Positions 20,632 to 46,672 of a DNA stretch of 52,855 bases are shown here, one piece after another. The DNA lies in the NCBI GenBank assembly GCA_964544225.1, contig CAZIZK010000001.1, positions 1 through 52,855 on the forward strand. The letters run 5' to 3'. The notes beneath the pieces were generated by a model. It was not told where the DNA came from. It made no database searches and worked only from the letters and a program-made list of their open reading frames with translations. The position numbers and the translations under genes were made by a program. Source of the DNA: an uncultured Candidatus Saccharibacteria bacterium. Its GTDB lineage: Bacteria > Patescibacteriota > Minisyncoccia > Phycocordibacterales > UBA9973. Positions within the stretch are counted from its first letter, which is position 1, and every line of letters starts with the position of its first letter.

Positions 20632-20743
20632 GGGTGTATTATAGCAAAATTATGTAAAATTTTTATGTTTGAAAAATAGGCCAATTATAGTATTATAGGC
20701 TAATCATATTGCCGTAATAGCTTTTTGGTAAAAAATATAATTA

Positions 20744-20818
20744 GCCGTCATAGCTTAGTGGTAAAGCACTGTCTTGGTAAGACAGAGACCGTGAGTCCGA
20801 TTCTCACTGACGGCTCCA
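20744..20818 (+). tRNA. tRNA-Thr(GGT)
   Basis: GCCGTCA/TGACGGC acceptor stem, CTGTC-TTGGTAA-GACAG anticodon arm, encoded CCA. T-loop is TCCGATT. Confidence 0.95.
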
Positions 20819-20823
20819 AAACT

Positions 20824-20864
20824 AAAATCCCCAGCAAGCGCCTTAGGCGCTTGCTGGGGATTTT
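20824..20864. terminator. bidirectional terminator, 20-bp perfect arms, 1-nt loop
   Basis: AAAATCCCCAGCAAGCGCCT-T-AGGCGCTTGCTGGGGATTTT. Confidence 0.85.
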
Positions 20865-20877
20865 CTTTCTTCAAGTA

Positions 20878-22215
20878 TTAAACGAATGTTAGGGCTTGGC
20901 CTGTACGATTACCGCGACCTGTTCGGCCTATGCGGTGAATGTATGTATCGTATGTAGATGGCACATCGTAGTTTATAACATGAGTGATATCTGGGATATC
21001 AATACCACGGGCCGCTACGTCTGTGGCTATCACTATCTGGGCTTGGCCTAATGCTAGTGACTTTACAGCACGCTCGCGTTCACGATTGCGCATATCACCA
21101 TGAAGTGCCAATGCTTTGAATCCGCGACCTTGCAACTCTTTTGCAAGTTCATCTACAGAGCGCTTCATCTCGCGGAAGATAAGTACCTTTGAACAATTTG
21201 GGTCGATAAGGATATTGTGTAGAGCTTCGAGCTTCATCTTGTAATCACCACGTACACGCACAACGTCTTGTGAGACACTGCTTGCTGTATCGCGAGTCTT
21301 TACTGAAACTGTAACAGGGTTGTTTAGGAATTCACTGCATAGTCGTGTGATCTCCGGTGAGATAGTTGCAGAGAAGAAGAAGCTTTGGCGTTCCTTTGGC
21401 ATAAGGCCTAGGATATAACGCATATCATCTACGAATCCCATATCCAACATGCGGTCAGCTTCGTCGAGCACTATGCTGTGGAAATTTGTAAGTACAAGAG
21501 AACGACGCGCAATGAGGTCCTTTACACGGCCTGGTGTACCAATAACTACATGTACTCCACGACGCAATTCATTCATCTGGCGCATTATAGGTGCACCACC
21601 TACGCAAGACACACTCCATAGCCCCATACCAGCTGTAAACAATTTAAATTCTTGTTCTATCTGCTGGGCAAGCTCGCGAGTAGGAGCAAGTATCAATACT
21701 TTTTTACTTGGATCGGCTACTAATTTATTTATCAATGGTAGTAGGAATGCTGCTGTCTTACCAGTACCTGTACTTGCTATACCTATAACGTCCTGCCCTT
21801 TCATACCCACTGGGATAGATTGGTCCTGGATTGGTGAAGGAGTAATGAACTCTTTCTTTGCAAGGTTTGCAAGAAGCTTTGGGTGCAAGTTGAAGTCTGA
21901 GAATGTATGCTTTGATACATAAGCGACTTCAGTAGTGTTAGTAGCTTTGTTGATAAAAAGGTTCTCATTTATAAAGTCCTTCTTAGAACCACGCTTGCCC
22001 CTGTTACCACCACCTGAGCGACCGCCACCATTTGAACGGCCACCTCTACTGCCTCCACCACTAAATCCGCCTCCACCTGATGGACGTGATGAAAAAGATC
22101 GAGATCCCCCGCCTGAGCGTGAACCTCCACTTCTAAACGAACTATTTGAACCACCATTTGAACTGTGGTTACTTGATTTACTACGCGCACTTGGTGCACG
22201 ACGTGTTGTATTCAT
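20878..22215 (-). CDS. DEAD-box RNA helicase with Gly/Ser/Arg-rich N-terminal extension
   Basis: PSPIQ, ASTGTGKT, PTRELAQQ, TPGR, DEAD, SAT, ARGID and HRIGRTGR. Start MNTTRR at 22215. Confidence 0.95.
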   Translation of the reverse strand: MNTTRRAPSARSKSSNHSSNGGSNSSFRSGGSRSGGGSRSFSSRPSGGGGFSGGGSRGGRSNGGGRSGGGNRGKRGSKKDFINENLFINKATNTTEVAYVSKHTFSDFNLHPKLLANLAKKEFITPSPIQDQSIPVGMKGQDVIGIASTGTGKTAAFLLPLINKLVADPSKKVLILAPTRELAQQIEQEFKLFTAGMGLWSVSCVGGAPIMRQMNELRRGVHVVIGTPGRVKDLIARRSLVLTNFHSIVLDEADRMLDMGFVDDMRYILGLMPKERQSFFFSATISPEITRLCSEFLNNPVTVSVKTRDTASSVSQDVVRVRGDYKMKLEALHNILIDPNCSKVLIFREMKRSVDELAKELQGRGFKALALHGDMRNRERERAVKSLALGQAQIVIATDVAARGIDIPDITHVINYDVPSTYDTYIHRIGRTGRGNRTGQALTFV

Positions 22216-22296
22216 AATGTTGTATTTTGTACTACGCGGGTCATCCCGTGCAGAAATACACAATGACATACATAGAAATTATTTTATTACCCTAAT

Positions 22297-22325
22297 ATAC
22301 TAATATATTTAAAGTAAAATGTCAA
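22297..22325 (-). promoter_or_regulatory. DEAD-box helicase promoter TTGACA-17-TAGTAT
   Basis: Consensus -35 (22320-22325) and -10 (22297-22302), giving a ~75-nt 5' UTR with a small GC hairpin at 22235-22250. Confidence 0.7.
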
Positions 22326-22354
22326 CCCCAACACTCATACATGAGTGTTGGGGT
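22325..22354. terminator. 14-bp inverted repeat after the methyltransferase gene
   Basis: ACCCCAACACTCAT-AC-ATGAGTGTTGGGGT. Confidence 0.6.
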
Positions 22355-22360
22355 GTACCC

Positions 22361-23107
22361 CTACCACCTTTTCTCTAGATATACTGTTATAGAACGGCGT
22401 TTAAAAGCCTTGCCTTTGGATATGTGTTTATGCGACTTTTCTATCTTGTGGATGTCGAAATGTGCACCGTATACCCTCTTTAATTCGGCCTCACTGTACA
22501 CATGTTCGTATACGCCCATCTCGGGGTGGATATATGCGCCCTCTTCATCGGCTGGGTTGTCACGCAGAAGCCTCTTTACATGCAAGTCTTCATCGGCGAG
22601 AAATGTCTTGAAGAAAAGGAACCCTCCAGGCTTTAAAACTCGCAATATTTCACTTATCATTACCTCCCTCTCCTTCTCTTTTAAAAAGTGTGATGTCATC
22701 ATGTCTAGTACTAAATCGCAAGATTCATCGGGAATGTTTGGAAATGTGCCCGCAATAGTTCGAGCCTCGTAAGTCAGCTTTGCACCGCTACTGTTTGTAC
22801 GAGCTTGAGTTATAGCATGCTCTGAAATATCGTACCCTACACCTGACATATTGAAAACTTCAGCAAGGTATATAAGGTTGCGCCCATTACCACAACCCAG
22901 ATCCAATACGTGACTCCATCGATCCAGATTCAATGCTTCATGTTTACGCCTCTCATTCCAGCGTAGAAATTTCTGCAAGTCTCCTGATGGCTCAAGTGAC
23001 ATACGCAAATGCTGTGGGTCATCGTACTCCTTGTCCCAAAAGGCTTTGCCTTTTGACTTTATACTTGTACGGGTATTTGGCTTTTTGTTATTAGTCCTTT
23101 CTCGCAT
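22361..23107 (-). CDS. class I SAM-dependent methyltransferase
   Basis: VLDLGCGNGRN, GYDISEHAI, DLVLD and LRVLKPGG. Confidence 0.9.
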   Translation of the reverse strand: MRERTNNKKPNTRTSIKSKGKAFWDKEYDDPQHLRMSLEPSGDLQKFLRWNERRKHEALNLDRWSHVLDLGCGNGRNLIYLAEVFNMSGVGYDISEHAITQARTNSSGAKLTYEARTIAGTFPNIPDESCDLVLDMMTSHFLKEKEREVMISEILRVLKPGGFLFFKTFLADEDLHVKRLLRDNPADEEGAYIHPEMGVYEHVYSEAELKRVYGAHFDIHKIEKSHKHISKGKAFKRRSITVYLEKRW

Positions 23108-23122
23108 ACGACTACTATAACA

Positions 23123-23157
23123 GAAAAGCCCCTTTAAATGAAATAAAGGGGCTTTTC
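23123..23157. terminator. intrinsic terminator
   Basis: GAAAAGCCCCTTTA-7nt-TAAAGGGGCTTTTC. Confidence 0.75.
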
Positions 23158-23170
23158 ATAATAAATATTT

Positions 23171-23494
23171 TTAACACATTGCCTTGTCTGGGCATGGACC
23201 CGGGGCAAAGCCACTTGATCCATCTGGGATCAATACATCGCCAGATTTCAAACCATCAGGACCAACAGAGCCATCTTTTGTACCTGTAGTGTATTTACCA
23301 GTGGTATCAGTACCTAAATCAGATTTATTGTCTATGATTTTAGTATCTGTATTTGTATTGCTAATAGTTTGAACTGTTGTATTTTGAGTATTGTTCAAAA
23401 TTCTGAGAGCTTCCTCATCGCGCCTTACCTTTATATTGAATGCTATTATCCAAACAACAAACAATACGAATATAATTAGTATAATCTTCTTCAT
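23171..23494 (-). CDS. hypothetical protein with N-terminal TM/signal anchor, T/N-rich linker and C-terminal CPDKAMC
   Basis: MKK plus a hydrophobic stretch, in an isolated ORF with its own terminator. No family recognised. Confidence 0.7.
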   Translation of the reverse strand: MKKIILIIFVLFVVWIIAFNIKVRRDEEALRILNNTQNTTVQTISNTNTDTKIIDNKSDLGTDTTGKYTTGTKDGSVGPDGLKSGDVLIPDGSSGFAPGPCPDKAMC

Positions 23495-23570
23495 TTTATT
23501 TTATATATTTAATAATGTTAATATCCTATTAACCTACAATATATAAGACGGGTGGGTGTATGAAAAATTA

Positions 23571-23611
23571 CAATATAAAAATCACCGATTAAATCGGTGA
23601 TTTTTATATTG
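23571..23611. terminator. terminator after tRNA cluster, 20-bp perfect arms, 1-nt loop
   Basis: CAATATAAAAATCACCGATT-A-AATCGGTGATTTTTATATTG, directly abutting the tRNA-Asp 3' end. Confidence 0.85.
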
Positions 23612-23685
23612 CGCAGTCGACGGGACTCGAACCCGCAACCTCCCACGTGACAGGCGGGTGCTCTAACCAGTTGAGCTACGACTGC
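23612..23685 (-). tRNA. tRNA-Asp(GTC)
   Basis: GCAGTCG/CGACTGC acceptor stem, CCCGC-CTGTCAC-GTGGG anticodon arm, G73. Confidence 0.96.
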
Positions 23686-23710
23686 AATTATATGTCTGCA
23701 AAATGCAGGG

Positions 23711-23784
23711 TGTCGGCGGGGGGAATTGAACCTCCGACCTTGGGCTTATGAGTCCCACGCTCTAACCAACTGAGCTACGCCGAC
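23711..23784 (-). tRNA. tRNA(CAT), elongator Met or Ile2
   Basis: GTCGGCG/CGCCGAC acceptor stem (paired 1:72), TGGGA-CTCATAA-GCCCA anticodon arm. A31:G39 and A51:C63 mismatches. Met versus Ile2 is not resolvable by eye. Confidence 0.9.
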
Positions 23785-23832
23785 ATATTTTCGAATAGTG
23801 ATATGTTTTGAAACCTGTCACATTTCGAATTG

Positions 23833-23903
23833 TTGCGGGGCTGGGAATCGAACCCAGGTCTCAAGGTTATGAGCCTTGCGAGATACCTCTTCTCTACCCC
23901 GCT
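23833..23903 (-). tRNA. initiator tRNA-fMet(CAT)
   Basis: AGCGGGG/CCCCGCA with unpaired 1:72, A11:U24, and CAAGG-CTCATAA-CCTTG anticodon arm. Confidence 0.9.
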
Positions 23904-23972
23904 ATATTATTGTATTGCAAAATAAATTAGAGTGGCTCATAACCTTGGTTATTCGCGCTATATGTCCTTTCG

Positions 23973-23998
23973 GAGATACCTCTTCTCTACCCCGCTAT
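23973..23998 (-). repeat. exact 26-bp copy of the tRNA-fMet 5' end
   Basis: GAGATACCTCTTCTCTACCCCGCTAT occurs at 23880-23905 and 23973-23998. Confidence 0.95.
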
Positions 23999-24070
23999 TT
24001 ATTAAAAGAGTCAATAAAACGCTCTTTTACGAGCATTTAATGATTATACCTAAAATCTAGATTTTTGCAA

Positions 24071-24748
24071 TTATATTGCCTTGAATTCGTCAAAGACTGT
24101 TTCGTATAGGCGTATTGTACGGCGAGCTTCGATCTGCGTTAGGGAGAATTCTGAACCAGCATGGGCTATGCCATTGCGTATATTATGAGCCTCCCAGGCA
24201 TTGTCTATACTTGCAAAAGAGTTGTCCCGAGCCCCCTTTAGCCTATCACCCAGGCTCTCCCCTTCATAACCACGCTCTTGCAATAACTCATCGAGCATAC
24301 TGTCGGCTTCGAGTATTGCAATACGCCAATCATTTGGTGAATCGCTACCTATGAGGCCCAATATATATTTCCATCGTGGGTTCACCTTTGCCTCCTCTTC
24401 AGCATCACGAGCCATGGCAAGTTTGATTTCGTGATCTATCTCCTCCTTCTCATGATTCTGGATTTCACGCATACGCACAAGTGAAAATATAATAATGGCA
24501 ATAAGAAATATAGAAATGATCGCAGAAACATTACCCACTACAACCCAAGTATGTGGATTACCAATACCAGATATTACAGGACCCACACCGTCAGCTATCT
24601 TTCCGAAAATGTATTCGATATTTAAAAATTGTGGATCAAAGAGTGCTGTCGCACCAAAAACAATAGTGGCTAGTATTACTAAGCCCCCTATTATCCAAAT
24701 ACCTGCGTCAGAGGAAGGTGGATGTTCATCATGCTTTGGTCCTGCCAT
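24071..24748 (-). CDS. hypothetical membrane protein (2 TM plus helical cytoplasmic domain)
   Basis: WRIAILEADSMLDELL..RGYEGESLGDRL...AWEAH.IRN.IAH pattern. Function unknown. Confidence 0.75.
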   Translation of the reverse strand: MAGPKHDEHPPSSDAGIWIIGGLVILATIVFGATALFDPQFLNIEYIFGKIADGVGPVISGIGNPHTWVVVGNVSAIISIFLIAIIIFSLVRMREIQNHEKEEIDHEIKLAMARDAEEEAKVNPRWKYILGLIGSDSPNDWRIAILEADSMLDELLQERGYEGESLGDRLKGARDNSFASIDNAWEAHNIRNGIAHAGSEFSLTQIEARRTIRLYETVFDEFKAI

Positions 24749-24760
24749 ATTTATATTATA

Positions 24761-26179
24761 CTATTTCTCAAAGTCTTTTCCAATTTTGAAAAGTGTTTTT
24801 TCGGAAAAAAGTGGTGCCATAATATGCAACCCTAGTGGCAAGCCATCATTGGTATACCCTGAAGGAACAGATATAGCTGGGATATCTGCAATGTTGGCTG
24901 GTGCAAGAAACAAATCGGATAAATACATAGACACAGGGTCCTTCGACTTTGCACCAAATTTAAATGGTGGAAATGGTGATGTGGGTGTAATAATAGCATC
25001 CACATCTTTGAAGACTTCGTTCAATTCATTTTTAATAGAGTCGCGAAGTTTACAAGCATTACCATAGTATGAGTCATAGTGCCCATGTGAAAGTATGTAG
25101 GTACCAAGTATGATACGGCGCTTGATCTCCTTACCTAAACCTTTGCCACGACTCTTCTTATACACATCCAGAAGGTTGGCACCGTCTTCATGATGGCCGT
25201 ATCGTATACCATCATAACGCGCCAAGTTCGAAGATACTTCAGATGGTTGCACAATATAATAAACAGCCAAAGAATATTTAGACAATGGTATTGAAATGTC
25301 TACCAATTCATATCCAGCATTTTTCAATTTATCACACGCTTGGTTAAAATTATCTATAACTTCAGGTGTGATACCCTCGCCTGTTAGAAAGTCACGTGGC
25401 ACACCGATCCTATTCTTTATATTTTTATTTTCCAATCTATCTCGTATTTCTATATCTACAGATGTATTATCCATATGGTCATGCGAGTTAGTAGCATTAA
25501 AAAGTATTTCTACATCTCCTACAGTCTTGCCTATTGGACCCACTTGGTCAAAGGAGCTAGCCATTGATATGATACCTCGGCGTGACACAGCACCATATGT
25601 TGGTTTAAGTCCTACTAGGTTACAAAATGATGCTGGTTGACGTATGGATCCACCAGTGTCAGTTCCGAGTGATACAAGTGCACCATCCATAGCTACAGCT
25701 GCCGCAGGACCCCCTGATGAACCACCCGGAACATAATCTGTATTTATAGGGTTCAATGTTGCACCAAAGGCACTTGTCTCATTCGAACTACCTGCAGCGA
25801 ACTCATCCATATTAGTACGGCCCATAAGTATTGCCCCCACCTTCTTCAGCTCACTTACTACATGAGCGTCATATGTGGCATGATAATTCTCCAACATTTT
25901 CGATGAAGCAGATGCGACGTATCCAGTATTTAGCATGTTATCTTTTAATGCGACAGGTATGCCAGTCATTAAAGTTGCAGTTCCATTAGTAAACATATCT
26001 TGTGCAACCTGTGCTTGGTTTTCCAAATCTGGATACACTTCCAAATACGCATTGATATCTGTATTTTTAGCATTGATATTTTCCAGATACACATTTACAA
26101 GATCAATAACTTTGTATTCACCATTTTTTAATGACTCGTGGGCTTTTTCAATATTTAGTTCTTTTAGATTTATTTGCAT
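24761..26179 (-). CDS. gatA: Asp/Glu-tRNA amidotransferase subunit A
   Basis: GIPVALKDN, GRTNMDEFA, PGGSSGG, GTDTGGSIRQPAS, RYDG and EIKRRIILG. Confidence 0.96.
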   Translation of the reverse strand: MQINLKELNIEKAHESLKNGEYKVIDLVNVYLENINAKNTDINAYLEVYPDLENQAQVAQDMFTNGTATLMTGIPVALKDNMLNTGYVASASSKMLENYHATYDAHVVSELKKVGAILMGRTNMDEFAAGSSNETSAFGATLNPINTDYVPGGSSGGPAAAVAMDGALVSLGTDTGGSIRQPASFCNLVGLKPTYGAVSRRGIISMASSFDQVGPIGKTVGDVEILFNATNSHDHMDNTSVDIEIRDRLENKNIKNRIGVPRDFLTGEGITPEVIDNFNQACDKLKNAGYELVDISIPLSKYSLAVYYIVQPSEVSSNLARYDGIRYGHHEDGANLLDVYKKSRGKGLGKEIKRRIILGTYILSHGHYDSYYGNACKLRDSIKNELNEVFKDVDAIITPTSPFPPFKFGAKSKDPVSMYLSDLFLAPANIADIPAISVPSGYTNDGLPLGLHIMAPLFSEKTLFKIGKDFEK

Positions 26180-26226
26180 TTTATTACTTTATACTTACTA
26201 CATACTACATACTACTTTCTACTTAA

Positions 26227-26505
26227 TTAAAGTATTTGTTTAACTTTCAAATAACCATCTTTTCTATCTGGCATTTCGGCAACAATCCTGTCTGTATATT
26301 CTCCTTCTTTATTTGTGACAATATCTTCACGAACCACATTAGTCTGCACATATTCTGTATCGTGTGCCAGATTTGAAGTCGCCTCTTTTATATGATCCAC
26401 GTACGCAATAATAGGGTCGAATTCGTTCGCCAAATTCGCCATTTCCTCCTCTGTCATATCCAGCCTTGCTAGTTCTGCAAGCTTCTTTATATCGTCTATT
26501 TGCAT
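26227..26505 (-). CDS. gatC: Asp/Glu-tRNA amidotransferase subunit C
   Basis: IKKLAELARL, NVVRED and GYLKV, upstream of gatA. Confidence 0.92.
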   Translation of the reverse strand: MQIDDIKKLAELARLDMTEEEMANLANEFDPIIAYVDHIKEATSNLAHDTEYVQTNVVREDIVTNKEGEYTDRIVAEMPDRKDGYLKVKQIL

Positions 26506-26523
26506 AATGCTAGAATAGCATAT

Positions 26524-28509: not shown

Positions 28510-28513
28510 ATAT

Positions 28514-28996: not shown

Positions 28997-29000
28997 GATA

Positions 29001-29609: not shown

Positions 29610-29610
29610 A

Positions 29611-30189: not shown

Positions 30190-30195
30190 ATATTT

Positions 30196-31682: not shown

Positions 31683-31712
31683 AAGTCTATTATAACACTC
31701 TGTCACATAAAC

Positions 31713-31747: not shown

Positions 31748-31758
31748 AAAAAATCTAA

Positions 31759-34179: not shown

Positions 34180-34180
34180 T

Positions 34181-35663: not shown

Positions 35664-35705
35664 ATAAATATATTATACCTCAATTAAAAATAAATAAGAA
35701 ATAGC

Positions 35706-37439: not shown

Positions 37440-37440
37440 A

Positions 37441-37884: not shown

Positions 37885-37888
37885 AATA

Positions 37889-38479: not shown

Positions 38480-38480
38480 A

Positions 38481-39194: not shown

Positions 39195-39203
39195 ATTTAT
39201 AAA

Positions 39204-40331: not shown

Positions 40332-40376
40332 ATTATATACATAATTATAGCATATTTGTAGTAAAATAAATGTTAT

Positions 40377-41051
40377 ATGGGCAACTTTATACACAATATT
40401 TATAAAAATATATTGGCAATATTATTACCCATGTCTTGTATTGGGTGTAAAAAGAAGAATGAGGCTATTTGTGAACTTTGTTTATCTAAAATATGTACAG
40501 CCGAGCGTGAACCAGCCCGTCATATTAGTGCCGTATTTGATTATCGCGATCCATTAATAAAGAAGATGATCTGGGAGCTGAAATACAATAATAAAAAGGT
40601 GTATGCAGATATATTAGGGAAATATCTATACGAAGAAATGCTGGAAGAAATATCGACTCTTAATATGTTCTCGCGGGGTAGCCCTATCGTCGTTATCCCT
40701 GTACCTTTGTCTAAAAATCGTTTGAAGAAAAGGGGTTATAACCAAAGCCTTTTGATAGCACAAGCTTTGGTTGAAAATTCAGGCGGTAATATCATGAGTC
40801 TGAACAATAATTTAATAATAAAGGTAAAAGACACCCCACCCCAAGCCCGCATTATAAACAGGAATAAACGCCTTGCTAACATAAAGGGTGCTTTTGCTTT
40901 TACAAATCCTGATGCAAAAGATTTCGTAAAAGGTAAAACCATAATAATCCTCGATGATGTCACAACTACAGGTGGCACCATACACGAGATAATGATTATG
41001 TTAAAACACGCCGGCGCCAAGAAAGTCACCGGACTTGCCGTAGCACACTGA
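40377..41051 (+). CDS. comF: ComF family competence protein (Zn ribbon plus PRTase)
   Basis: CIGC...ICELC, PVPLSK.R..KRGYNQS, ILDDVTTTGGT. Ends in TGA. Confidence 0.92.
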   Translation: MGNFIHNIYKNILAILLPMSCIGCKKKNEAICELCLSKICTAEREPARHISAVFDYRDPLIKKMIWELKYNNKKVYADILGKYLYEEMLEEISTLNMFSRGSPIVVIPVPLSKNRLKKRGYNQSLLIAQALVENSGGNIMSLNNNLIIKVKDTPPQARIINRNKRLANIKGAFAFTNPDAKDFVKGKTIIILDDVTTTGGTIHEIMIMLKHAGAKKVTGLAVAH

Positions 41052-41062
41052 TAATAAAAAGA

Positions 41063-42256
41063 TTATTTATTCCACATGTCCCATACTGCGCCGGCAATAT
41101 TACGAGGCTTACCTTCGAGTGCGTAGTAGTGTAGGTCAATAAAAGGCAAAGTATTGCATTCGATAATACCCCATTTTTGTGTACTCTGATCTTTGGTCGG
41201 GTCAGGAATAATGCAGTCAAAGCCAGCAATAGCCAAGCCTACAACTCTACCTGCTTTTTCTAAAATCGGAATAAAGCTTGGGTGAAGCTCGTCTATCATC
41301 TCTTTTGTGCTTCCACCAAATAGCCTTCCGACACGGTGATATAGATTTATGGACACTTTGTCTGGCAAAATGTCATCAATCCCAAAACCTGCCCGAACAA
41401 GACAAGCATTCAACTCTTCACCCATTCTGACTGGTTCAATGCGATTATTCCTATTTTCATCCTTTTCTTTTATTAGAGTCCTAATTGTCTTTGTACCATC
41501 ACCCACAATAAAAGGCGCTTGCCCCCTATAAAAGCCTAAGAGGACTCCGTCGACAACAGTTGCCCTGCACACATAACCATGCAGATGTTCCTCTACGACA
41601 AGATGTGTAGATATTTGACTAGTTATAGCTACCCCCTCTTTGAAATCTTTTAGTGTATTTATATTAGTGATAGTGTGTCTGGATCTAGAACCTATTTCTG
41701 GTTTTACAATAACAGGTTTTTTAAATTTATTAAAAATACTTTCTAAATTATTAAATTTAGAACTTGATATACCTATACACTGTGGTACGGGAATATTGTG
41801 TTTAGATAGTTCTTTTTTTAAAAGAATTTTATTATCCCAATTATTACTAAATACTCTTTTAGGTGGTATAGGTATACTTTCAAAATATTCGAATTTACCA
41901 TTTATAATAGCCCTGTATTGGTCTATAGGCCTTTTGCCAACTATCACTTGCTCCATGTATATACCGCGCCGTTTAGCCTCCTCCCATATAACACGAGATC
42001 GGAAAGAACTTGCTTTATCTATATCATTTGAAAAATGAGATACTTTGAGGAATGACAAGAAACTAAAAAGATATTTTGGTATCAACTCAACCATTTGCTC
42101 CATCCAAGATGGAGCAAACTTCGAAAGCTTGCCGATTGTGTGATCGACAATATATAAAACGTGGTTCTCTATTTTATGGAGATTATGATTGATAGGTGCA
42201 TCACCACAATACGAGCATGCCCCCTGACGGACTTTTGGTTCAGAAGTATTTTGCAT
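41063..42256 (-). CDS. standalone ATP-grasp ligase (cyanophycin synthetase/GshF-type domain)
   Basis: IPVP, VIVKP, VEEHLHG, IVGDG..TI..LI, AGFDCII and IIECNTLP. Confidence 0.75.
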   Translation of the reverse strand: MQNTSEPKVRQGACSYCGDAPINHNLHKIENHVLYIVDHTIGKLSKFAPSWMEQMVELIPKYLFSFLSFLKVSHFSNDIDKASSFRSRVIWEEAKRRGIYMEQVIVGKRPIDQYRAIINGKFEYFESIPIPPKRVFSNNWDNKILLKKELSKHNIPVPQCIGISSSKFNNLESIFNKFKKPVIVKPEIGSRSRHTITNINTLKDFKEGVAITSQISTHLVVEEHLHGYVCRATVVDGVLLGFYRGQAPFIVGDGTKTIRTLIKEKDENRNNRIEPVRMGEELNACLVRAGFGIDDILPDKVSINLYHRVGRLFGGSTKEMIDELHPSFIPILEKAGRVVGLAIAGFDCIIPDPTKDQSTQKWGIIECNTLPFIDLHYYALEGKPRNIAGAVWDMWNK

Positions 42257-42270
42257 ATTTAATAAGACAC

Positions 42271-42301
42271 ACAAAAGAGGCAAGAAGCTTGCCTCTTTTG
42301 T
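42271..42301. terminator. intrinsic terminator
   Basis: ACAAAAGAGGCAAG-AAG-CTTGCCTCTTTTGT. Confidence 0.7.
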
Positions 42302-42453
42302 AGAAAAAATAAATTCTTAGTGTTCTCCTTTTATCATAAAAATAATATAACATTAAAGCCTTATTAAATCGACTATGTATAAGATGTATTATATCATGTA
42401 CATATTTAAATGCTAGTTTTTCCAAAATACATTAATATTACACAATAAAATGC

Positions 42454-43491
42454 CTAATCTTCGATTGTTTGTGCAGTACATATTGCATGTAATATTGTAC
42501 CTTTTGAGTCAAATTTGAACTTGCATATTGACGATACCTTCTTCTTTTGATCACCATTCATAATATTGTATTTCAATTTTATGAATTCTTGATCTTTGTA
42601 TGAATTAACAGTATCTTTCTTTATCCTCTCTATATCTTCGTGGCTTACAAATGCCATAAATTCTTCTAGTGAAAGTTTCGTATGCTCTGTATTCAATATC
42701 TTCATCATTGTCTTGTTTAGAACGACAATATTATTATTGGAATTCCATGTAAAGTGTCCCAGACCCGCCAACTCTTCAGACAATGTTAAAAAGTCTTTGC
42801 TTTGTTGCAAGTCCTGATTAACAGTCTCGAGATTACGTGCGTATTCAAACGAACGTAATATTATTGATATCAACAATAATACAGATATAAATACTAATAA
42901 AGACATGGCGACTACAACATATTGGGCAGTATGAACTCTATTAATAAAATCTCTCGCGGAAATATCAATACCGAGCATCGCCTCCACTTTACCACTCTCA
43001 CCAAATATCGGTGTATAAGCCGATATCCAGCTACCCCATGCGTCTGTATATGGACCACTAGTATAAGCTATACCATTCCTATGATTGTACAAATCCTCCT
43101 CGGTACTTTCGGTATAGGCTTGGCCTGGTGGTGAGTAATCTTTTGAACTTGGATCTTCCGAGTCAACAAGGAAGAACTCTTGGCCATCGTGCAGACCCAT
43201 CAGATATGAAAAGTGTATATCAAAATTCACATCATTCGCCCTCTTTAGAGTTTGCTTAAGTTTCTGGTATTGTGAATTGTCGATATCAGACTCATTGCCA
43301 GACAATACCTTTATATCATTTGGATCGATAGCTACTGAAATATTCTGGACTTGTTGCAATAGATTCTTCCGCTCAACATCAGACACCTTCTTGCCAACAT
43401 ATATAACGCTACTGATAGATACGATAACAACAATAACTGAGGCAAGTATGACTATAAACAAACCACTTTTATTATATTTTAAATCTTTCAT
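42454..43491 (-). CDS. membrane sensor: TM-Cache-like-TM-PAS-like, no output domain
   Basis: FLVDSE...YSPPGQ.Y...GPYTDAWGSWISAYTPI extracytoplasmic module and a C-terminal AGLGHFTWN PAS-like fold. Confidence 0.7.
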   Translation of the reverse strand: MKDLKYNKSGLFIVILASVIVVIVSISSVIYVGKKVSDVERKNLLQQVQNISVAIDPNDIKVLSGNESDIDNSQYQKLKQTLKRANDVNFDIHFSYLMGLHDGQEFFLVDSEDPSSKDYSPPGQAYTESTEEDLYNHRNGIAYTSGPYTDAWGSWISAYTPIFGESGKVEAMLGIDISARDFINRVHTAQYVVVAMSLLVFISVLLLISIILRSFEYARNLETVNQDLQQSKDFLTLSEELAGLGHFTWNSNNNIVVLNKTMMKILNTEHTKLSLEEFMAFVSHEDIERIKKDTVNSYKDQEFIKLKYNIMNGDQKKKVSSICKFKFDSKGTILHAICTAQTIED

Positions 43492-43495
43492 AATA

Positions 43496-44008
43496 TTATT
43501 GTATGTTATCTATAGTAATTTCAGATTCAGGAGCAGTGTGTACGTCAGGTACTAAGTGTGAAATATGTTTATAGAAAACAACGTATTCACCTAAAAATTT
43601 CTTGAAATGTGCATAATGTGGCACTTCACCAATTTCCTGCATGTGGGCTAGTGGCTTGCTCTCGGGAGTGTATTCATAATGTCCACGTAACTCCCCCTCT
43701 TTAAATACACGTATATGATACTGATTATCGAAGTCCACAAGCTTGCGCCATGATAGGACTTGACCTTCGTCTTTCCATGCTACGAAATGATTACCAAAAC
43801 CCCATTTGGTATGCAAATGATCCTCGAGTTGTTTTAGATTTTTATGTGGCGCAAGCCAGCCTAGGTGGTAATGTTGACGCCCTTTATCATGGCGAACTAT
43901 ATGCCATTTTAACAAATGAACTTGGAACCAAGGAAAAACATAATATATTTTATGCCAAAACCAGTTCTTGAATCTCTGCCAAGGTGTTAAATGTATTGTC
44001 TTCTTCAT
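43496..44008 (-). CDS. hypothetical His/Trp-rich protein
   Basis: 170-aa ORF with a TGTTATAAT promoter 6 nt upstream. No family recognised. Confidence 0.75.
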   Translation of the reverse strand: MKKTIHLTPWQRFKNWFWHKIYYVFPWFQVHLLKWHIVRHDKGRQHYHLGWLAPHKNLKQLEDHLHTKWGFGNHFVAWKDEGQVLSWRKLVDFDNQYHIRVFKEGELRGHYEYTPESKPLAHMQEIGEVPHYAHFKKFLGEYVVFYKHISHLVPDVHTAPESEITIDNIQ

Positions 44009-44024
44009 TCACACATTATAACAC

Positions 44025-44621
44025 CTAATTATCCACTTTGTCAGCGAATACTACCAGGCGGCTTGAGTGACTCTTATTTATACTATCCCATATACCATTG
44101 CAAGTGATCAGGTTCAAATGTGCCTTGCCATCAGATGTTTTAAATACACTTGTTGAATCTTGCCCTTCTTCATAAGTCTTCAGTTTTCGTACTATAAATA
44201 CAGTAGTTAAACCATTACTATTTTTTACATATATTTTGTCACCTATTTTTATTTTATATAAATTATCAAATACAGCCTTTATGCCGTCTTTCCACCCAGA
44301 GTGACCATCTATAACCGAACTACCTACCGTACCAGGCCTCGGACCCATATAAAACCATCCAACATTAATAGGGCCCTCTGGTGCATCCATGGCACCACCC
44401 TTTGTAATACCAACATGTTCAATGTTGGTATTTATACTAAGTGATGGGATAGAGATAGAAACAGGAAGACCGATATCAACATCTAAAGATGTATCGGATA
44501 ATATTGTAGATTTTTTAATATCAACATTTTTTGCACCATTTACATACTGCATAATAAATGCCGATGATATCATTACTAAGATAGATACTATAAAGAATTT
44601 TAATATTCTTCCTTTTTTCAT
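44025..44621 (-). CDS. class F sortase
   Basis: TM anchor, P..I.IPSL.I, VGW, PG..GS.VIDGH, LNLITC and RLVVFA (His/Cys/Arg triad). Confidence 0.88.
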   Translation of the reverse strand: MKKGRILKFFIVSILVMISSAFIMQYVNGAKNVDIKKSTILSDTSLDVDIGLPVSISIPSLSINTNIEHVGITKGGAMDAPEGPINVGWFYMGPRPGTVGSSVIDGHSGWKDGIKAVFDNLYKIKIGDKIYVKNSNGLTTVFIVRKLKTYEEGQDSTSVFKTSDGKAHLNLITCNGIWDSINKSHSSRLVVFADKVDN

Positions 44622-44622
44622 A

Positions 44623-44841
44623 TTATTTTATTATTTTCTTTACTTTGTTTACAACATGCTTTACTTTCTTTACATCTTTCTTTACTTCGTTCTTTGCATT
44701 CAAGATAAGACCCTTCATCTTATCCTGATGTTCCTTGCTATTTGGCCCTAGTAGGTAGTACGCCCCTGCCCCTACAGCAGCGATACCAGCACCGACAGCT
44801 ACAGCCTTGCCCACTGACATACCCTTTTTATGTTTAGTCAT
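44623..44841 (-). CDS. YtxH-like small protein
   Basis: Gly/Ala hydrophobic N-terminus ending YYLLGP, then a basic amphipathic helix. Confidence 0.55.
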   Translation of the reverse strand: MTKHKKGMSVGKAVAVGAGIAAVGAGAYYLLGPNSKEHQDKMKGLILNAKNEVKKDVKKVKHVVNKVKKIIK

Positions 44842-44870
44842 ATATTTTTATTCGTTTAAACTGATAAATC

Positions 44871-45134
44871 CTAGCTACTTTTTTTATTTTTTTTAGATCT
44901 TTTTTTATTTTTAAAAAATAATTTAAAAATAAAACTATCTTTTATATCCTCAAACGTTTCTTTGATTACCTCTTCTACTGAATCTATATTCTTCTCCAAT
45001 TTATTTATCAATTTTGCAAACAAATTTAAAATATGAAGAATGCGTATCAAGATAAGCACTGCCAATACACCCATGATGATGAATCCCACAGAAGAGATAA
45101 AGAAAAAAACTTGTGATTGTAATAAGGAATTCAT
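44871..45134 (-). CDS. DUF948 (YtxG/YoxC)-like small membrane protein
   Basis: TM followed by a coiled coil and a basic tail, paired with a YtxH-like gene. Confidence 0.5.
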   Translation of the reverse strand: MNSLLQSQVFFFISSVGFIIMGVLAVLILIRILHILNLFAKLINKLEKNIDSVEEVIKETFEDIKDSFIFKLFFKNKKRSKKNKKSS

Positions 45135-45158
45135 AAAATAAATTAATACAATTATCTA

Positions 45159-46133
45159 TTACTTTAGTTTACGATTCTTCCTTGCTACCAATACACTTGC
45201 AGATACAACTGCGATAGTACTTAGTACTAACACTATTATTGAAGTATTAGTTGATTCCTTTGGAGCAAAGCCTGTCGCAGGTAATGTTGGAACATAAGAA
45301 ATTGGATTACTAGTTACTACTGTAACAGTTGTAACTGTTTTTGGGAGATTTGATAAAGGCATACTACCTGTAACATTGCTACTGCCACCGCCTGAATTAC
45401 TTGGTTCTACGATGATAACTGGGTCTGTACAAACAGATGTGGTTATAGTATTGGTATCAGAAGTAATAGTACCTCCGTATGCTAATGCTCTTCCATTCCA
45501 TATTGTGTTTGCTCCTATGGTAATACCTGCATCATCTATCGCAGTTCCTATAAATGTTGTGTTCGCGGCAAGAGTAATAGCAGATGATGGTGTCCAGAAG
45601 ACATCACATTCTGATGCACCGTTGAGTGTGATTACAGAACCTACTGTTGATGTCAATGCGCCAGTTGGTCGGAATATATAAGTTCCACTTCCTTGTAGTG
45701 TTAATGGTCCCCCTATGTTCATAGCGCCATTACTACAATACACACCTGGTGTATAAACAGCGACTGTTCCATGAGTAATATCTGTAGATAGATCTATTGC
45801 CCCTGGCGCAAATGTGAATGTACAAGCTTGTCCATTCAAAGAAGTAAGTGCTGTGCCTTGTATAGTGCCTGCTTGGGTAAATATTCCAGTATTTACATAA
45901 GTGGTACCGCTGACTGTTGGGTTCACTGCAGGCGCAGTTATATAACCCAAGTCACCATTGATTGTTGTTGGTGTTGTATTTGTATAAGTACTAGCTAAAA
46001 CACTAAAACTATTAGCGAGTCCCAATACTGGAGTCGTGGCTGCATACGCAACATTGACACCATTTAATACAAAAACTAAACTAAGTGCTACTGCGAATGA
46101 TACGTATCTAGTTTTGTTTTTATAAGATTTCAT
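45159..46133 (-). CDS. DUF3494 ice-binding-like protein with signal peptide and LPATG sorting signal
   Basis: LG.A.SFSVLA, TINGDLG, YTPGVY, YIF, DVFW..SSA.TL...T.F.G...I...GRAL, then LPATG-TM-RKNRKLK. Confidence 0.85.
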   Translation of the reverse strand: MKSYKNKTRYVSFAVALSLVFVLNGVNVAYAATTPVLGLANSFSVLASTYTNTTPTTINGDLGYITAPAVNPTVSGTTYVNTGIFTQAGTIQGTALTSLNGQACTFTFAPGAIDLSTDITHGTVAVYTPGVYCSNGAMNIGGPLTLQGSGTYIFRPTGALTSTVGSVITLNGASECDVFWTPSSAITLAANTTFIGTAIDDAGITIGANTIWNGRALAYGGTITSDTNTITTSVCTDPVIIVEPSNSGGGSSNVTGSMPLSNLPKTVTTVTVVTSNPISYVPTLPATGFAPKESTNTSIIVLVLSTIAVVSASVLVARKNRKLK

Positions 46134-46416
46134 TTTGATTTATTTTTATTTAATTATTAGTTAATATTTTCGAATTATTACATATTATAAATATAAGATT
46201 CGGCACGTTGAAATACATCTTTGTGCAGATTTCTAAACTAGACTTGGCATATTTTAACCAAAGTCAGCTATATAAGTATTTATAATAAAGAGAGTTCTCT
46301 TTCGTGGCCGACCTATATCACACATCTTTGTAGAAGAAGTAATAAGCTAATATAAGTATATCACTTCCACATAAATATAGATAGCAGTCAATAGCATTAC
46401 ACCACATATGACTTTT

Positions 46417-46506
46417 TGGCGGAGCCGGACGGATTCGAACCGTCGAGGGCTTTTACACCCTGCCTCTTTAGCAAAGAGGTACGTTAGACCACTCTGACAC
46501 GGCTCC
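46417..46506 (-). tRNA. tRNA-Ser(GCT)
   Basis: GGAGCCG/CGGCTCC acceptor stem, CCTCT-TTGCTAA-AGAGG anticodon arm, long variable arm, G73, encoded CCA. Confidence 0.95.
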
Positions 46507-46512
46507 ATATTA

Positions 46513-46577
46513 AATTTAACTAAAGGACCAATAACACACGGATCCATGTTAATTTAACTAAAGGACCAATAACACAC
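46513..46577. repeat. tandem 27-bp exact direct repeat (period 38)
   Basis: AATTTAACTAAAGGACCAATAACACAC at 46513-46539 and 46551-46577. Confidence 0.95.
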
Positions 46578-46672
46578 ATCTCCATATTGGTTACAGATGC
46601 ATATTAGCATATAAAAAACATAAATAAAATAAGGCTTTTATAATTCTTAAAATATAGTATAATGCCTGTTAC

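What the first reader, a model, noticed from the sequence alone, without database searches (positions are those of the whole stretch)
20711..46583. Recurring pattern: three tRNA genes each have upstream copies of their own 5' end (acceptor strand to D-loop)
Seen at three of the seven tRNAs: Thr (one copy, offset 33), fMet (exact copy, offset 93) and Ser-GCT (two copies, offsets 39 and 77). The copied part is always the 5' ~20-24 nt and never the 3' end. Established: tRNA-targeting integrases normally duplicate the 3' portion downstream of the gene, so this polarity is atypical. Inference: a process that repeatedly duplicates tRNA 5' ends. Candidates are an element or recombinase targeting the D-arm, slippage at the RNase P junction, or selected tandem leader units that yield tRNA 5'-fragment RNAs or decoy processing sites.
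Basis: partly seen in the sequence, partly recalled or inferred. Interest (0 to 1): 0.62.

Follow-up and report, generated by a model that had tools for sequence, protein, structure and literature searches.

The report
tRNA leader repeats copying 5' ends
About a quarter of the tRNA genes in this tiny Paceibacteria (CPR) genome are preceded by one or more dead copies of their own first ~22 bases; these most probably sit inside the transcribed leader, and across the whole bacterial order such copies carry one fixed rewrite of the D-loop, a tRNA-linked repeat family I could not find described and whose job is unknown.

Summary
All three in-window cases are at the stated places. Genome-wide, 9-10 of 37 tRNAs carry an upstream copy of their own 5' end (0.2% in shuffled flanks, P~7e-17). 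No tRNA has a copy of its 3' end or middle upstream, or of its 5' end downstream.

The copies lie downstream of sigma70-like promoters, so they are probably pre-tRNA leader. They form in-register tandem units of two sizes, ~39 nt and ~73 nt (tRNA length). Some long units are visibly decayed whole-tRNA copies.

In this order (Nomura-, Kaiser-, Taylor-, Yonathbacteria and relatives), 63 of 223 sampled genera have units reading [cognate acceptor strand]-TAGCT-GTYTT-GGTAG. Every copy of a GCTCAG-type tRNA that runs through the D-loop has CAG replaced by GTY (22 of 22). The acceptor part tracks the cognate tRNA but otherwise decays with AT bias. The rewritten D-loop is nearly invariant while spacers are saturated.

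I found no general hairpin, no leader-trailer pairing, no integrase, no phage link and no Rfam match.

Best reading: tandem-duplication-born leader repeats, kept like the tRNA by copying, whose altered D-loop is a selected cis signal with an unknown reader. The closest thing in print is the mirror-image E. coli tRNA-linked repeats.

The parts
20669..20696 (+). sigma70-like promoter (TTGAAA-16-TATTAT) of the tRNA-Thr(GGT) unit; it lies upstream of the 5'-end copy
   Evidence: 10 of 12 consensus matches; sequence. A consensus match only, not shown to be used.
20711..20743 (+). Thr(GGT) leader unit, 33 nt. Positions 20711-20732 copy tRNA positions 1-22 (19 of 22 identical). D-loop A14 G15 are replaced by TT (GCTTAGTGG becomes GCTTTTTGG).
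   Evidence: The relative G010 has two 70-nt units at the same locus that are decayed full-length tRNA copies (L183).
20744..20818 (+). tRNA-Thr(GGT)
   Evidence: ARAGORN; Rfam RF00005, 69.7 bits
20824..20864 (+). terminator-like hairpin closing the Thr unit
24043..24070 (-). sigma70-like promoter (TTGCAA-16-TATAAT) of the Met-Met-Asp tRNA operon. It is conserved in relatives whether or not they carry the leader unit.
24021..24034 (-). small hairpin GCTCGTAAAAGAGC near the 5' end of the predicted transcript, conserved in relatives
   Evidence: sequence; relatives
23904..23996 (-). initiator-tRNA leader unit, 93 nt. It holds an exact copy of tRNA positions 1-24 (acceptor strand plus intact D-arm). 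The exact repeat, with 2 leader bases added, is 23973-23998. A rearranged anticodon arm follows, holding the inverted repeat ATAACC/GGTTAT (23939-23952).
   Evidence: Orthologous units occur in 8 or more species of the genus, with 2-3 tandem copies in G018 and G014. MFE z-score -3.5, but no covariation.
23832..23903 (-). initiator-type tRNA-Met(CAT), with an A1xA72 mismatch
23570..23785 (-). rest of the operon: second tRNA(CAT) at 23708-23785, tRNA-Asp at 23611-23685 and a terminator-like hairpin at 23570-23612. None of these has a 5'-end copy.
46546..46583 (-). Ser(GCT) distal leader unit, 38 nt, starting GGAGATG. The D-loop CAGAG is replaced by GTTAT.
46507..46545 (-). Ser(GCT) proximal leader unit, 39 nt, starting GGATCCG, with the same GTTAT replacement
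   Evidence: The units are absent from the otherwise co-linear leader of the closest relative G010 (L157).
46417..46506 (-). tRNA-Ser(GCT)

Best explanation
These are members of an order-wide family of leader repeats in front of tRNA genes.

**Origin.** The 5' part of a tRNA gene is duplicated head-to-tail, in register with the mature 5' end. Units are either about one tRNA long (~73 nt) or about half a tRNA long (~39 nt). The upstream copy lacks the T-arm and the 3' acceptor strand, so it cannot form a tRNA.

**Location.** The copies lie between the predicted promoter and the mature 5' end. They would be transcribed as pre-tRNA leader and cut off when RNase P makes the 5' end. An RNase P RNA gene is present in the genome.

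**Maintenance.** The acceptor-strand part stays like the cognate tRNA through copying (array turnover or gene conversion). Between such events it decays with AT bias.

**Selected part.** In tRNAs with a GCTCAG-type D-arm, D-loop positions 13-15 (often 13-17) are always rewritten from CAG(NN) to GUY(UU). This removes C13, A14 and G15, which established tRNA structure places in the D-stem and the tertiary core. G18 and G19 are kept. This motif, UAGCU-GUYUU-GGUAG, is the conserved part of the unit.

**Function (inferred, not shown).** The motif is a single-stranded, C-poor cis signal in the leader, read by an unknown factor of pre-tRNA processing or folding. My favoured specific version resembles the tRNA-like domain of tmRNA. 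The unit's acceptor copy and its stemless GG loop can transiently take the place of the real 5' part against the tRNA's 3' strand and T-loop. That would make each unit boundary an RNase P site. I give this specific version about 0.2.
For: **Recurrence and polarity**
- 9-10 of 37 tRNAs here carry a 5'-end copy, and only 5' ends upstream are copied.
- In a set of 287 tRNA genes of the order not chosen by the motif, 42 genes have such a copy.

**Leader position**
- The promoter-like sites TTGAAA-16-TATTAT and TTGCAA-16-TATAAT lie upstream of the copies.
- The same promoter and 5' hairpin serve the initiator tRNA in species with and without the unit.
- Some arrays contain no -10-like sequence at all, for example L040.

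**Duplication origin**
- Arrays hold 2-6 units; in the arrays inspected the units are identical or nearly so.
- The period is bimodal: 35-44 nt (59 units) and 70-79 nt (54 units) among 142 units.
- The G010 Thr(GGT) units match the tRNA to about position 58. The G002 Val copy matches to position 44. Co-linear anticodon-arm and T-arm remnants survive in several long units.

**Copying rather than pairing selection**
- The initiator-tRNA unit matches its own tRNA at position 1, which is unpaired (A or C opposite A72), in 7 of 8 species.
- Of 88 acceptor-copy differences, 65 run from G or C to A or T. Pairing with the 3' strand is preserved no more than that bias predicts.

**Selected motif**
- For TAGCTNNNTTGGTAGB in 401 genomes, by my reading of the table about 122 of the 150 listed hits have NNN = GTT or GTC. 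Nine have CAG and about 19 are scattered, which is about the level of the reversed control.
- 22 of 22 unbiased copies that run through the D-loop have GTY. CAG survives only in copies cut off at position 15-17.
- Identity to the cognate tRNA per position is 0.88-0.94 at 1-7, 0.99 at 8-12, 0.00 at 13-15 and 0.85-1.0 at 16-22. From position 26 on it is 0.16-0.30, about chance; positions 23-25 are biased by the search pattern used.
- Phe units of G000, G010 and G009 keep the motif while their spacers diverge strongly.
- The motif ignores some cognate D-loop variants (C16, C17, C20, A15) but keeps type-specific GGTTAG.

**Distribution**
- 86 of 401 genomes and 63 of 223 genera of the order have the motif.
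- Elsewhere in the phylum the count is at background level, and the 12 loci inspected are not tRNA-linked.

**RNase P**
- An RNase P RNA gene is present.
Against: - No transcript data could be obtained. Leader status rests on promoter consensus and on conservation of promoter position.
- No reader of the motif was found. It is not complementary to RNase P RNA beyond chance or to the trailers. It only loosely resembles the local rRNA boxA.
- The units have no conserved fold. Unit MFE z-scores are near 0, there is no excess of acceptor-complement in the spacers, and three GTY array sequences fold worse than their shuffles.
- The initiator-tRNA units keep an intact D-arm, and the G010 Thr units keep A14 in one copy. 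The D-loop rewrite is therefore not universal to all 5' copies.
- Presence is patchy even within the genus, and loss looks scarless. The units are therefore dispensable.
- Why exactly GTY arises each time is not explained.
Confidence: 0.5

Rival explanations
1. The units are functionless by-products. Tandem slippage or unequal crossing-over at heavily transcribed tRNA genes keeps producing partial 5' duplicates. These are tolerated only once their D-arm is crippled. The conserved look of the motif reflects youth, repeated refreshing from the tRNA, and survival of only those copies whose homology is interrupted.
For: - The acceptor copies decay with plain AT bias.
- Units are gained and lost between close species, apparently without scars.
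- There is no conserved structure and no identified partner.
- Only 3 of 45 tRNAs carry units in G117, against 10 of 37 here.
- Fresh-looking copies exist without the rewrite (G009 Ser, G010 Thr, G117 Ile).
Against: - A neutral or 'any disabling change' model does not predict the same three transversions (C13 to G, A14 to U, G15 to Y) in 22 of 22 unbiased copies and in about 122 of 150 order-wide hits, with no intermediates seen.
- The motif stays fixed while spacers are saturated.
- D-loop length is preserved.
- Only 5' copies upstream are seen, although 3' partial duplicates should arise equally often.
- These genomes are small (about 0.4-1.4 Mb), and genomes of that size are generally taken to shed neutral DNA quickly (my inference, not tested); yet the initiator-tRNA unit persists in 8 or more species.
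Confidence: 0.28
2. The units are footprints of a small mobile element or a site-specific recombinase. It enters tRNA genes in or near the D-loop and restores the gene by duplicating its 5' part. The old 5' part is left behind, joined to an element end that reads GTYTT....
For: - Earlier notes of this scan describe gene-less structured elements sitting inside truncated duplicate tRNA genes in Patescibacteria. The G002 Val copy (L022) carries such a hairpin insert after position 44.
- GC-rich hairpins are inserted in the D-loop of the initiator-tRNA units of G004 and G020.
- Ser tRNAs of relatives have exact 12-18-nt copies followed by a shared hairpin element.
Against: - In GTY units the copy continues past the changed bases and follows the cognate D-loop type (GGTAG or GGTTAG). 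The changed piece is therefore only 3-5 nt, not an element end.
- Spacers are unrelated between loci.
- Units are 33-97 nt and carry no gene.
- Units within an array are identical, which fits amplification rather than repeated insertion.
- 0 of 68 viral-contig hits are tRNA-linked.
- A target duplication running exactly from +1 to position 12-22 fits no known transposase or integrase (from my own knowledge).
Confidence: 0.1
3. The units are DNA-level operator or enhancer sites. Arrays of binding sites for a protein that controls tRNA transcription would have evolved from the D-arm-coding DNA, with spacing set relative to the gene start.
For: - The motif is conserved as sequence rather than as structure.
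- Spacing to the gene is bimodal and tight, ~39 and ~73 bp.
- The sites occur in tandem arrays.
Against: - The best promoters lie upstream of the units, not downstream.
- The units themselves give no consistent -35/-10 reading, and several arrays lack any AT-rich -10-like hexamer (worked through by eye).
- Units also sit between tRNAs inside operons, for example in the Cys-Leu-[unit]-Lys-Leu cluster.
- The motif is strictly on the tRNA sense strand.
Confidence: 0.07
4. The copies are chance similarity or an assembly artefact.
For: tRNA D-arm sequences are common words, and short repeats can be mis-assembled.
Against: - P~7e-17 against shuffled flanks.
- Cognate-specific acceptor copies: among 50 units 28 match 7 of 7, against a mean of 2.9 of 7 for non-cognate tRNAs.
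- The same architecture appears in more than 100 independent assemblies.
Confidence: 0.01

Closest known systems
tRNA-linked repeats (TLRs) of E. coli tRNA and rRNA operons (Egan & Landy 1978; described in PMC8144298)
   Same: Both are short repeated units inside stable-RNA operons that carry an exact copy of one end of the neighbouring tRNA. Both are often tandem, form a family of many loci per genome, and have a largely unknown function. The copied end is thought to borrow the tRNA's processing signals.
   Different: TLRs lie downstream and end with the last 18-19 bp of the tRNA or rRNA (PMC8144298). Here the units lie upstream and begin with the first ~22 nt, a mirror image. They also carry a fixed D-loop rewrite (CAG to GTY) and come in two sizes (~39 and ~73 nt). 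They are confined to one order of Paceibacteria.
Partial tRNA gene copies left by integrative elements (att duplications; Williams 2002, as cited in PMC9897764)
   Same: [quoted passage not shown]
   Different: Integration duplicates the part of the tRNA gene that overlaps the att site, and the two copies flank kilobases of element DNA (9-23 kb in the examples of PMC9897764). From my own knowledge, an integrase gene lies between them and in bacteria the duplicated part is normally the 3' part. Here the 5' part is duplicated, the copies are 33-97 nt apart with no gene between them, and arrays of identical units occur.
tRNA-like domain of tmRNA and external-guide-sequence substrates of RNase P (from my own knowledge)
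   Same: In both, an acceptor 5' strand followed by a stemless, pyrimidine-rich loop ending in GG is paired with a distant 3' strand and T-arm. This is the topology the units could adopt with the downstream tRNA's 3' part. RNase P cuts such substrates.
   Different: This is a resemblance of architecture only. The local tmRNA has no GTYTT motif, no cleavage data exist, and no sequence homology is claimed.
Leader modules that mimic tRNA 5' ends, noted by earlier agents of this scan in Patescibacteria, Omnitrophota, Bacteroidales and Alphaproteobacteria (unpublished AI notes)
   Same: These are also copies of the tRNA's first 8-30 bases in the leader, often tandem and often before Thr, Lys or Val tRNAs.
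   Different: Those notes stress fold-back hairpins or antisense clamps. In the GTY family tested here, acceptor-complement or hairpin content is not above control. The defining feature is the D-loop rewrite.

Membership tests
E. coli-type tRNA-linked repeats (TLR) | Unit lies in a tRNA or rRNA operon transcript | tested here: inconclusive
   Promoter-like sites lie upstream of the units and terminators lie after the tRNAs. No RNA data were available.
E. coli-type tRNA-linked repeats (TLR) | [quoted passage not shown] | tested here: not met
   All units lie upstream of the cognate tRNA.
E. coli-type tRNA-linked repeats (TLR) | The last 18-19 bp of the unit are identical to the 3' end of that gene (PMC8144298) | tested here: not met
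   The first ~22 nt copy the 5' end. The 3' end scored 0 of 37 upstream and gave one weak direct hit downstream.
att-site duplication by tRNA-targeting integrative elements | The two copies flank an element that encodes an integrase or recombinase | tested here: not met
   Copies are 33-97 nt apart with no room for an ORF, and arrays consist of identical units.
att-site duplication by tRNA-targeting integrative elements | The duplicated part is the 3' portion of the tRNA (anticodon loop, T-loop or 3' end) | tested here: not met
   Only 5' portions are duplicated.
Tandem tRNA gene duplicates or tRNA pseudogenes | Similarity to the tRNA along its whole length, with a cloverleaf at least in part | tested here: inconclusive
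   This holds for a few long units: G010 Thr to about position 58, G002 Val to position 44, and remnants in L050, L214 and L259. For most units, similarity stops at position 22, and the tails are no closer to the cognate tRNA than to others (P=0.24 for long units; no excess for short units). Rfam tRNA model does not hit the units in the 6 loci searched.
Curated leader or cis-regulatory RNA families (T-box and other Rfam 15 families) | Match to a covariance model at or near the gathering score | tested here: not met
   Only tRNAs reach the threshold. Nothing credible lies over the units even at E values up to 5.
rrn-type boxA (NusB/NusE) antitermination element | Sequence like the organism's own rRNA-leader boxA, placed after a boxB hairpin | tested here: not met
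   In this genus the rRNA-leader boxA is ATTTCTTTGAAA, after a hairpin. The shared GCTGTTTT is the 3' strand of that hairpin and varies between species.

The most novel reading that the evidence does not exclude
The arrays are a natural RNase P dicing device. The downstream tRNA's own 3' three-quarters (3' acceptor strand, T-arm, D-stem 3' strand) would act as a built-in external guide sequence. It would pair in turn with each unit's acceptor copy and dock on that unit's stemless GG loop. RNase P would then cut at every unit boundary and release defined 39-nt or 73-nt RNAs that begin like a tRNA 5' half. These would be either a timing and quality gate for tRNA maturation or a new class of leader-derived small RNAs carrying the GUYUUGGUAG handle for an order-specific binding protein.
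Probability: 0.1. Interest if true: 0.85.

Novelty: new variant of a known kind. Interest (0 to 1): 0.64.

Why it matters
- Bacterial pre-tRNA leaders are usually treated as short throw-away sequence. Here a whole order of ultra-small bacteria places copies of the tRNA's own 5' end there, at up to a quarter of its tRNA genes, with a rewritten D-loop that behaves like a selected signal.
- If the signal has a reader, this is an undescribed layer of tRNA maturation or expression control in organisms with one gene per tRNA.
- If it has no reader, the family is a clean natural case of concerted evolution and directional partial duplication at tRNA genes. It would be the 5' counterpart of the still unexplained E. 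coli tRNA-linked repeats.
- Practically, the units may mislead tRNA annotation and repeat finders in CPR genomes.
- The motif TAGCTGTYTTGGTAG is a simple marker for the lineage.

Tried and rejected
- **Promoter reading of the units.** I tried TTGGTA as a -35, TAG.TA as a -10, extended -10, sigma54-type GG/GC spacing and an antisense promoter. No consistent spacing emerged, and several arrays have no AT-rich hexamer (by eye).
- **boxA antitermination.** The rRNA-leader boxA of the genus is a different sequence.
- **General hairpin pairing the acceptor copy with the spacer.** Striking single cases exist (L059, L057, L044, L047, L050). Over 64 long and 51 short units there is no excess over swapped-acceptor controls.
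- **Leader-trailer pairing.** Own trailers score no better than foreign ones.
- **Complementarity of the motif to RNase P RNA.** Not significant, p=0.11-0.38.
- **tmRNA as the source of the motif.** No similarity.
- **Conserved fold of the units.** z-scores are near 0, and three GTY array sequences fold worse than their shuffles.
- **Covariation in the initiator-tRNA unit.** All predicted pairs are invariant, so this is uninformative.
- **Selection for pairing of the acceptor copy with the 3' strand.** The differences are ordinary AT-biased decay.
- **Residual homology of unit tails to the cognate tRNA as a general rule.** Not significant, and clear only in some units.
- **Phage origin.** 0 of 68 viral hits are tRNA-linked.
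- **Shared spacer motif between loci.** Only A/T-rich words recur.
- **Reverse-transcription signatures.** DGR-type A-specific changes or modified-base misreads do not fit C to G, A to T, G to T, and leader bases are included in the units.
- **Mini-ORF CTG/ATG-TTT-TGG-TAG.** No ribosome-binding site was evident, and array periods are not multiples of three.
- **Literature.** Five full-text searches found no description of the family.

Full report
**1. What is in the window**

ARAGORN finds seven tRNAs.

- **Thr(GGT), 20744-20818 (+).** It is preceded at 20711-20732 by GCCGTAATAGCTTTTTGGTAAA, against the tRNA's GCCGTCATAGCTTAGTGGTAAA (19 of 22 identical, offset 33).
- **Initiator-type Met(CAT), 23832-23903 (-).** It is preceded by an exact 26-nt repeat at 23973-23998, which is two leader bases plus tRNA positions 1-24, at offset 93.
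- **Ser(GCT), 46417-46506 (-).** It is the last member of a 38/39-nt tandem array with units at 46546-46583 and 46507-46545.

The window is C1:1-52855 of a 770-kb, four-contig, 39% GC genome. Earlier notes of this scan place it in Paceibacteria.

**2. More than chance, and more than three**

I scored the first 24 nt of each of the genome's 37 tRNAs against its own upstream 150 nt, with other tRNAs masked.

- Nine tRNAs reach a local-alignment score of at least 19: Thr-GGT, Met-CAT, Lys-TTT, Val-TAC, Ile-GAT, Phe-GAA, Ala-TGC, Thr-TGT and Lys-CTT.
- Ser-GCT falls just below that score because its units are more diverged.
- The same score is reached by 0.2% of shuffled flanks and 0.75% of non-self flanks (binomial P~7e-17).
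- The same test gives 0 of 37 for the 5' end downstream, the 3' end upstream, the middle upstream, and the reverse complement of the 5' end upstream. The 3' end has one weak direct hit downstream (ungapped version).

**3. Anatomy in this genome**

Outside the window the copies sit 70-75 nt upstream of the tRNA start, which is one tRNA length. These are Val-TAC (C1:259710-259785), Ala-TGC, Thr-TGT, Lys-CTT, Ile-GAT and Lys-TTT. Phe has two tandem units of 73 and 70 nt.

Several copies share a sequence that is not the tRNA's. GCTCAGTTGGTAGAGC becomes GCTGT(T/C)TTGGTAG(G/A)TA. The exact word GCTGTTTTGGTAG occurs in the genome only in front of tRNAs.

**4. The copies are probably in the transcribed leader**

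- Consensus scans place TTGAAA-16-TATTAT at 20669-20696, upstream of the Thr copy. They place TTGCAA-16-TATAAT at 24070-24043, upstream of the initiator copy. Terminator-like hairpins follow the tRNAs.
- In 29 relatives the initiator tRNA uses the same promoter and the same small 5' hairpin, whether or not a unit lies between them and the tRNA.
- Some arrays contain nothing resembling a -10 box, for example L040.
- Units also occur between tRNAs inside operons, as in Cys-Leu-[unit]-Lys-Leu.
- An RNase P RNA gene is present.

**5. Relatives of the three in-window loci**

*Initiator tRNA.*
- A 90-114-nt unit is present in G000, G024, G017, G016, G003 and G004. It is present twice in G018 and three times in G014, is degenerate in G009, G011 and G020, and is absent from about ten other species of the genus.
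- The unit holds tRNA positions 1-24 with an intact D-arm. It then holds a rearranged anticodon arm turned into an inverted repeat (CTCATAACC..GGTTATGAG).
- Across species, tRNA position 1 is A or C. It is unpaired, opposite A72. Position 7 is G or A. The unit matches its own tRNA in 7 of 8 species. That argues for copying rather than selection for pairing.
- The unit folds better than its shuffles (z=-3.5), but its predicted pairs never vary.

*Ser(GCT).*
- The 38/39-nt units are unique to this genome. The closest relative, G010, has the same leader without them.
- G009 has a different, exact 18-nt copy at offset 106.

*Thr(GGT).*
- G010 has two 70-nt units that match the tRNA to about position 58 and then run into 12 AT-rich bases.
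- Long units therefore begin as nearly whole-tRNA, head-to-tail duplicates. The 33-nt unit in this window looks like an internally deleted one.

**6. An order-wide family with a fixed signature**

- The pattern TAGYTGTYTTGGTA occurs in 86 of 401 sampled genomes of the order, in 63 of 223 genera. It is several-fold more frequent than its reversed control, and is often found in tandem.
- Of 30 loci fetched, 24 have a same-strand tRNA 30-70 nt downstream, and 2 more are cut off by contig ends.
- Elsewhere in the phylum the pattern is at background level, and none of the 12 inspected loci is tRNA-linked.
The record titles name Nomura-, Kaiser-, Taylor- and Yonathbacteria, Parcubacteria and Paceibacterota, plus about a dozen hits in other phyla, the number expected by chance.
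- Of those 120 loci, 88 have a tRNA downstream: Val, Thr, Lys, Phe, Ala, Asn, Ile or Met. In 71 of the 88 the acceptor copy matches 6 or 7 of 7.
- None of 68 viral-contig hits is tRNA-linked.

With the three D-loop positions left open (TAGCTNNNTTGGTAGB), by my reading of the table about 122 of the 150 listed hits read GTT or GTC. Nine read CAG, and these look like odd real tRNAs. About 19 are scattered, which is about the level of the reversed control.

**7. Quantitative anatomy**

The set is 142 units at 107 loci.

| tRNA positions | Identity of unit to cognate tRNA |
|---|---|
| 1-7 | 0.88-0.94 |
| 8-12 | 0.99 |
| 13-15 | 0.00 |
| 16-22 | 0.85-1.0 |
| 26 and beyond | 0.16-0.30, about chance (23-25 are biased by the search pattern) |

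- Periods are bimodal: 59 units at 35-44 nt and 54 units at 70-79 nt. Single units are mostly ~73 nt and array units are mostly ~39 nt.
- In a set of 287 tRNA genes that was not chosen by the motif, 42 genes have an upstream 5' copy.
- In that set, all 22 copies of GCTCAG-type tRNAs that run through the D-loop carry GTY.
- CAG survives only in copies truncated at position 15-17.
- The changed stretch is really 13-17 (CAGNN to GTYTT). It ignores cognate variants at positions 16, 17 and 20, while the rest of the loop follows the tRNA type, GGTAG or GGTTAG.
- The Ser units in the window show the same kind of change (CAGAG to GTTAT). The Thr unit shows AG to TT.

**8. What is selected and what is not**

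- The acceptor copies differ from their tRNAs at 88 paired positions. Of these, 65 run from G or C to A or T (C to T 28, G to A 17, C to A 13, G to T 7).
- Pairing with the 3' strand is kept no more often than that bias gives.
- Together with the position-1 result, this says the acceptor copy is kept similar by copying (array turnover or gene conversion) and otherwise drifts.
- By contrast, positions 13-22 are almost invariant in copies anchored on the acceptor part, while spacers are saturated even within the genus.
- I take the rewritten D-loop as the part under purifying selection. This is an inference. I could not remove ascertainment completely, and I have no population data.

**9. What the units are not**

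- They have no general hairpin. Acceptor-complement in the spacer is not above swapped controls.
- Unit MFE z-scores are near 0.
- In three of the four GTY-type sequences folded, 196-200 of 200 shuffles fold at least as well; the fourth (L039) is indistinguishable from its shuffles.
- They do not pair with trailers or with RNase P RNA.
- They do not match Rfam.
- They are not boxA.
- They give no consistent promoter reading.
- They carry no genes and are not phage-linked, so the integrase or att model fails.
- The changed piece is 3-5 nt inside a continuous copy, so an 'element end' model fits poorly.
- Other small inserts do exist in some units: the G002 Val copy and the G004 and G020 initiator units.

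**10. Explanation**

*Shown.*
- Recurrent, in-register, 5'-only partial duplication.
- Concerted change of acceptor copy and tRNA.
- A fixed D-loop rewrite with order-wide distribution.
- Frequent gain and loss.

*Supported only by consensus and conservation.*
- Position of the units downstream of the promoters.

*Inferred.*
- The units are pre-tRNA leader removed by RNase P.
- The rewritten, stemless D-loop keeps G18 and G19, loses C13, A14 and G15, preserves loop length, and lies in units that are C-poor overall (about 13% C). I read it as a cis signal in the leader.
- My favoured mechanism has each unit transiently replacing the real 5' part. The unit would pair with the tRNA's 3' strand and dock on the T-loop. 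This is the topology of the tmRNA tRNA-like domain and of external-guide substrates, and it would make unit boundaries RNase P sites. I give this mechanism about 0.2.

The main rival is that the units are tolerated junk whose D-arm had to be crippled. It explains the drift and the patchiness. It does not explain why the same three transversions appear every time, or why only 5' copies exist.

**11. Comparison with what is known**

The closest thing in print is the set of tRNA-linked repeats of E. coli. There are 22 such units, lying downstream of tRNA or rRNA genes. Each ends in the last 18-19 bp of that gene, and their function is largely unknown (PMC8144298). The present family is their mirror image, and it fails two of the three defining features I listed for TLRs.

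Five full-text searches found no description of 5'-end leader repeats.

Earlier AI notes of this scan report related leader modules in other genomes, and the Phe repeats of this same genome as a 'local curiosity'. My data contradict 'local'. For this family they also do not support the fold-back or antisense features that several of those notes stress.

**12. Limits**

- No RNA evidence was available.
- The control in other phyla was limited to a motif scan.
- The counts read from the long tables are my own tallies.
- The reader of the motif, and the reason for GTY in particular, remain unknown.

Noticed in passing
window 46673-46760 (+): A well-formed tRNA-Ser with anticodon ACT (A34) lies divergent from tRNA-Ser(GCT). 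An earlier agent has already reported it. In relatives its upstream region carries 12-18-nt exact copies of its 5' end, followed by a shared AT-rich hairpin (AAATATAAACTGCTTTATATTT).
   Followed up: partly
G000 C1:251734-251821 (Ser-TGA), C2:195220-195292 (Glu-TTC), C2:231831-231902 (Trp-CCA); downstream flanks: The reverse complement of the last 24 nt of these three tRNAs recurs in their own downstream 150 nt (scores 19-27). This may be inverted 3'-end copies or terminator-like hairpins built from the tRNA tail. It may relate to the 3'-end hairpin elements noted earlier in this genome (item 3).
   Followed up: no
L141 (G004) and L134 (G020), initiator-tRNA leader units: GC-rich hairpins of about 26-32 nt are inserted inside the D-loop of the dead 5' copy. 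They read CTGCCCGCCCTCACGGAGGGAGCAGG and CCGCCTTCGCATTTGCTTCGGCGAGGCAAAGG. The copies may be landing sites for tiny hairpin elements.
   Followed up: no
L022 (G002), about 169 nt upstream of tRNA-Val(GAC): The upstream copy is identical to the tRNA over positions 1-44 except GCTCAG to GTTGTT. It then continues into the hairpin CTCGGGAGAAAGGGACCCGAG. An older, degenerate unit lies further upstream.
   Followed up: partly
window 23832-23903 (-) and relatives L126-L154: The initiator-type tRNA starts with A1 opposite A72 here. Relatives have A1, C1 or T1, always mismatched with A72. From my own knowledge, bacterial initiators usually have C1xA72, and the anticodon stem here has only two of the three usual G-C pairs.
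   Followed up: no
window 715-960 (-), 16S rRNA leader: A strong promoter (TTGACT..TATAAT) is followed by a boxB-like hairpin (ACAGTCTGG..CCGGCTGT) and a boxA-like ATTTCGTTGAAAA. These are conserved across the genus, with hairpin variation.
   Followed up: partly
G117 C1:425040-425113 (-), tRNA-Ile(GAT) upstream region: There are two upstream units, one with GTC and one that keeps CAG but stops at position 15. A good promoter-like site (TTGACA..TTAATT) lies between the units and the tRNA. At this locus the units may therefore lie upstream of a promoter.
   Followed up: no
G000 C3:22753-22827 (Thr-TGT unit) and C4:7271-7343 (Lys-CTT unit): These two units read TATGCTGTTTTGG, with one extra T after position 9. 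This creates ATG-CTG-TTT-TGG-TAG, a four-codon mini-ORF. It is probably meaningless, but the same variant recurs in L269.
   Followed up: no
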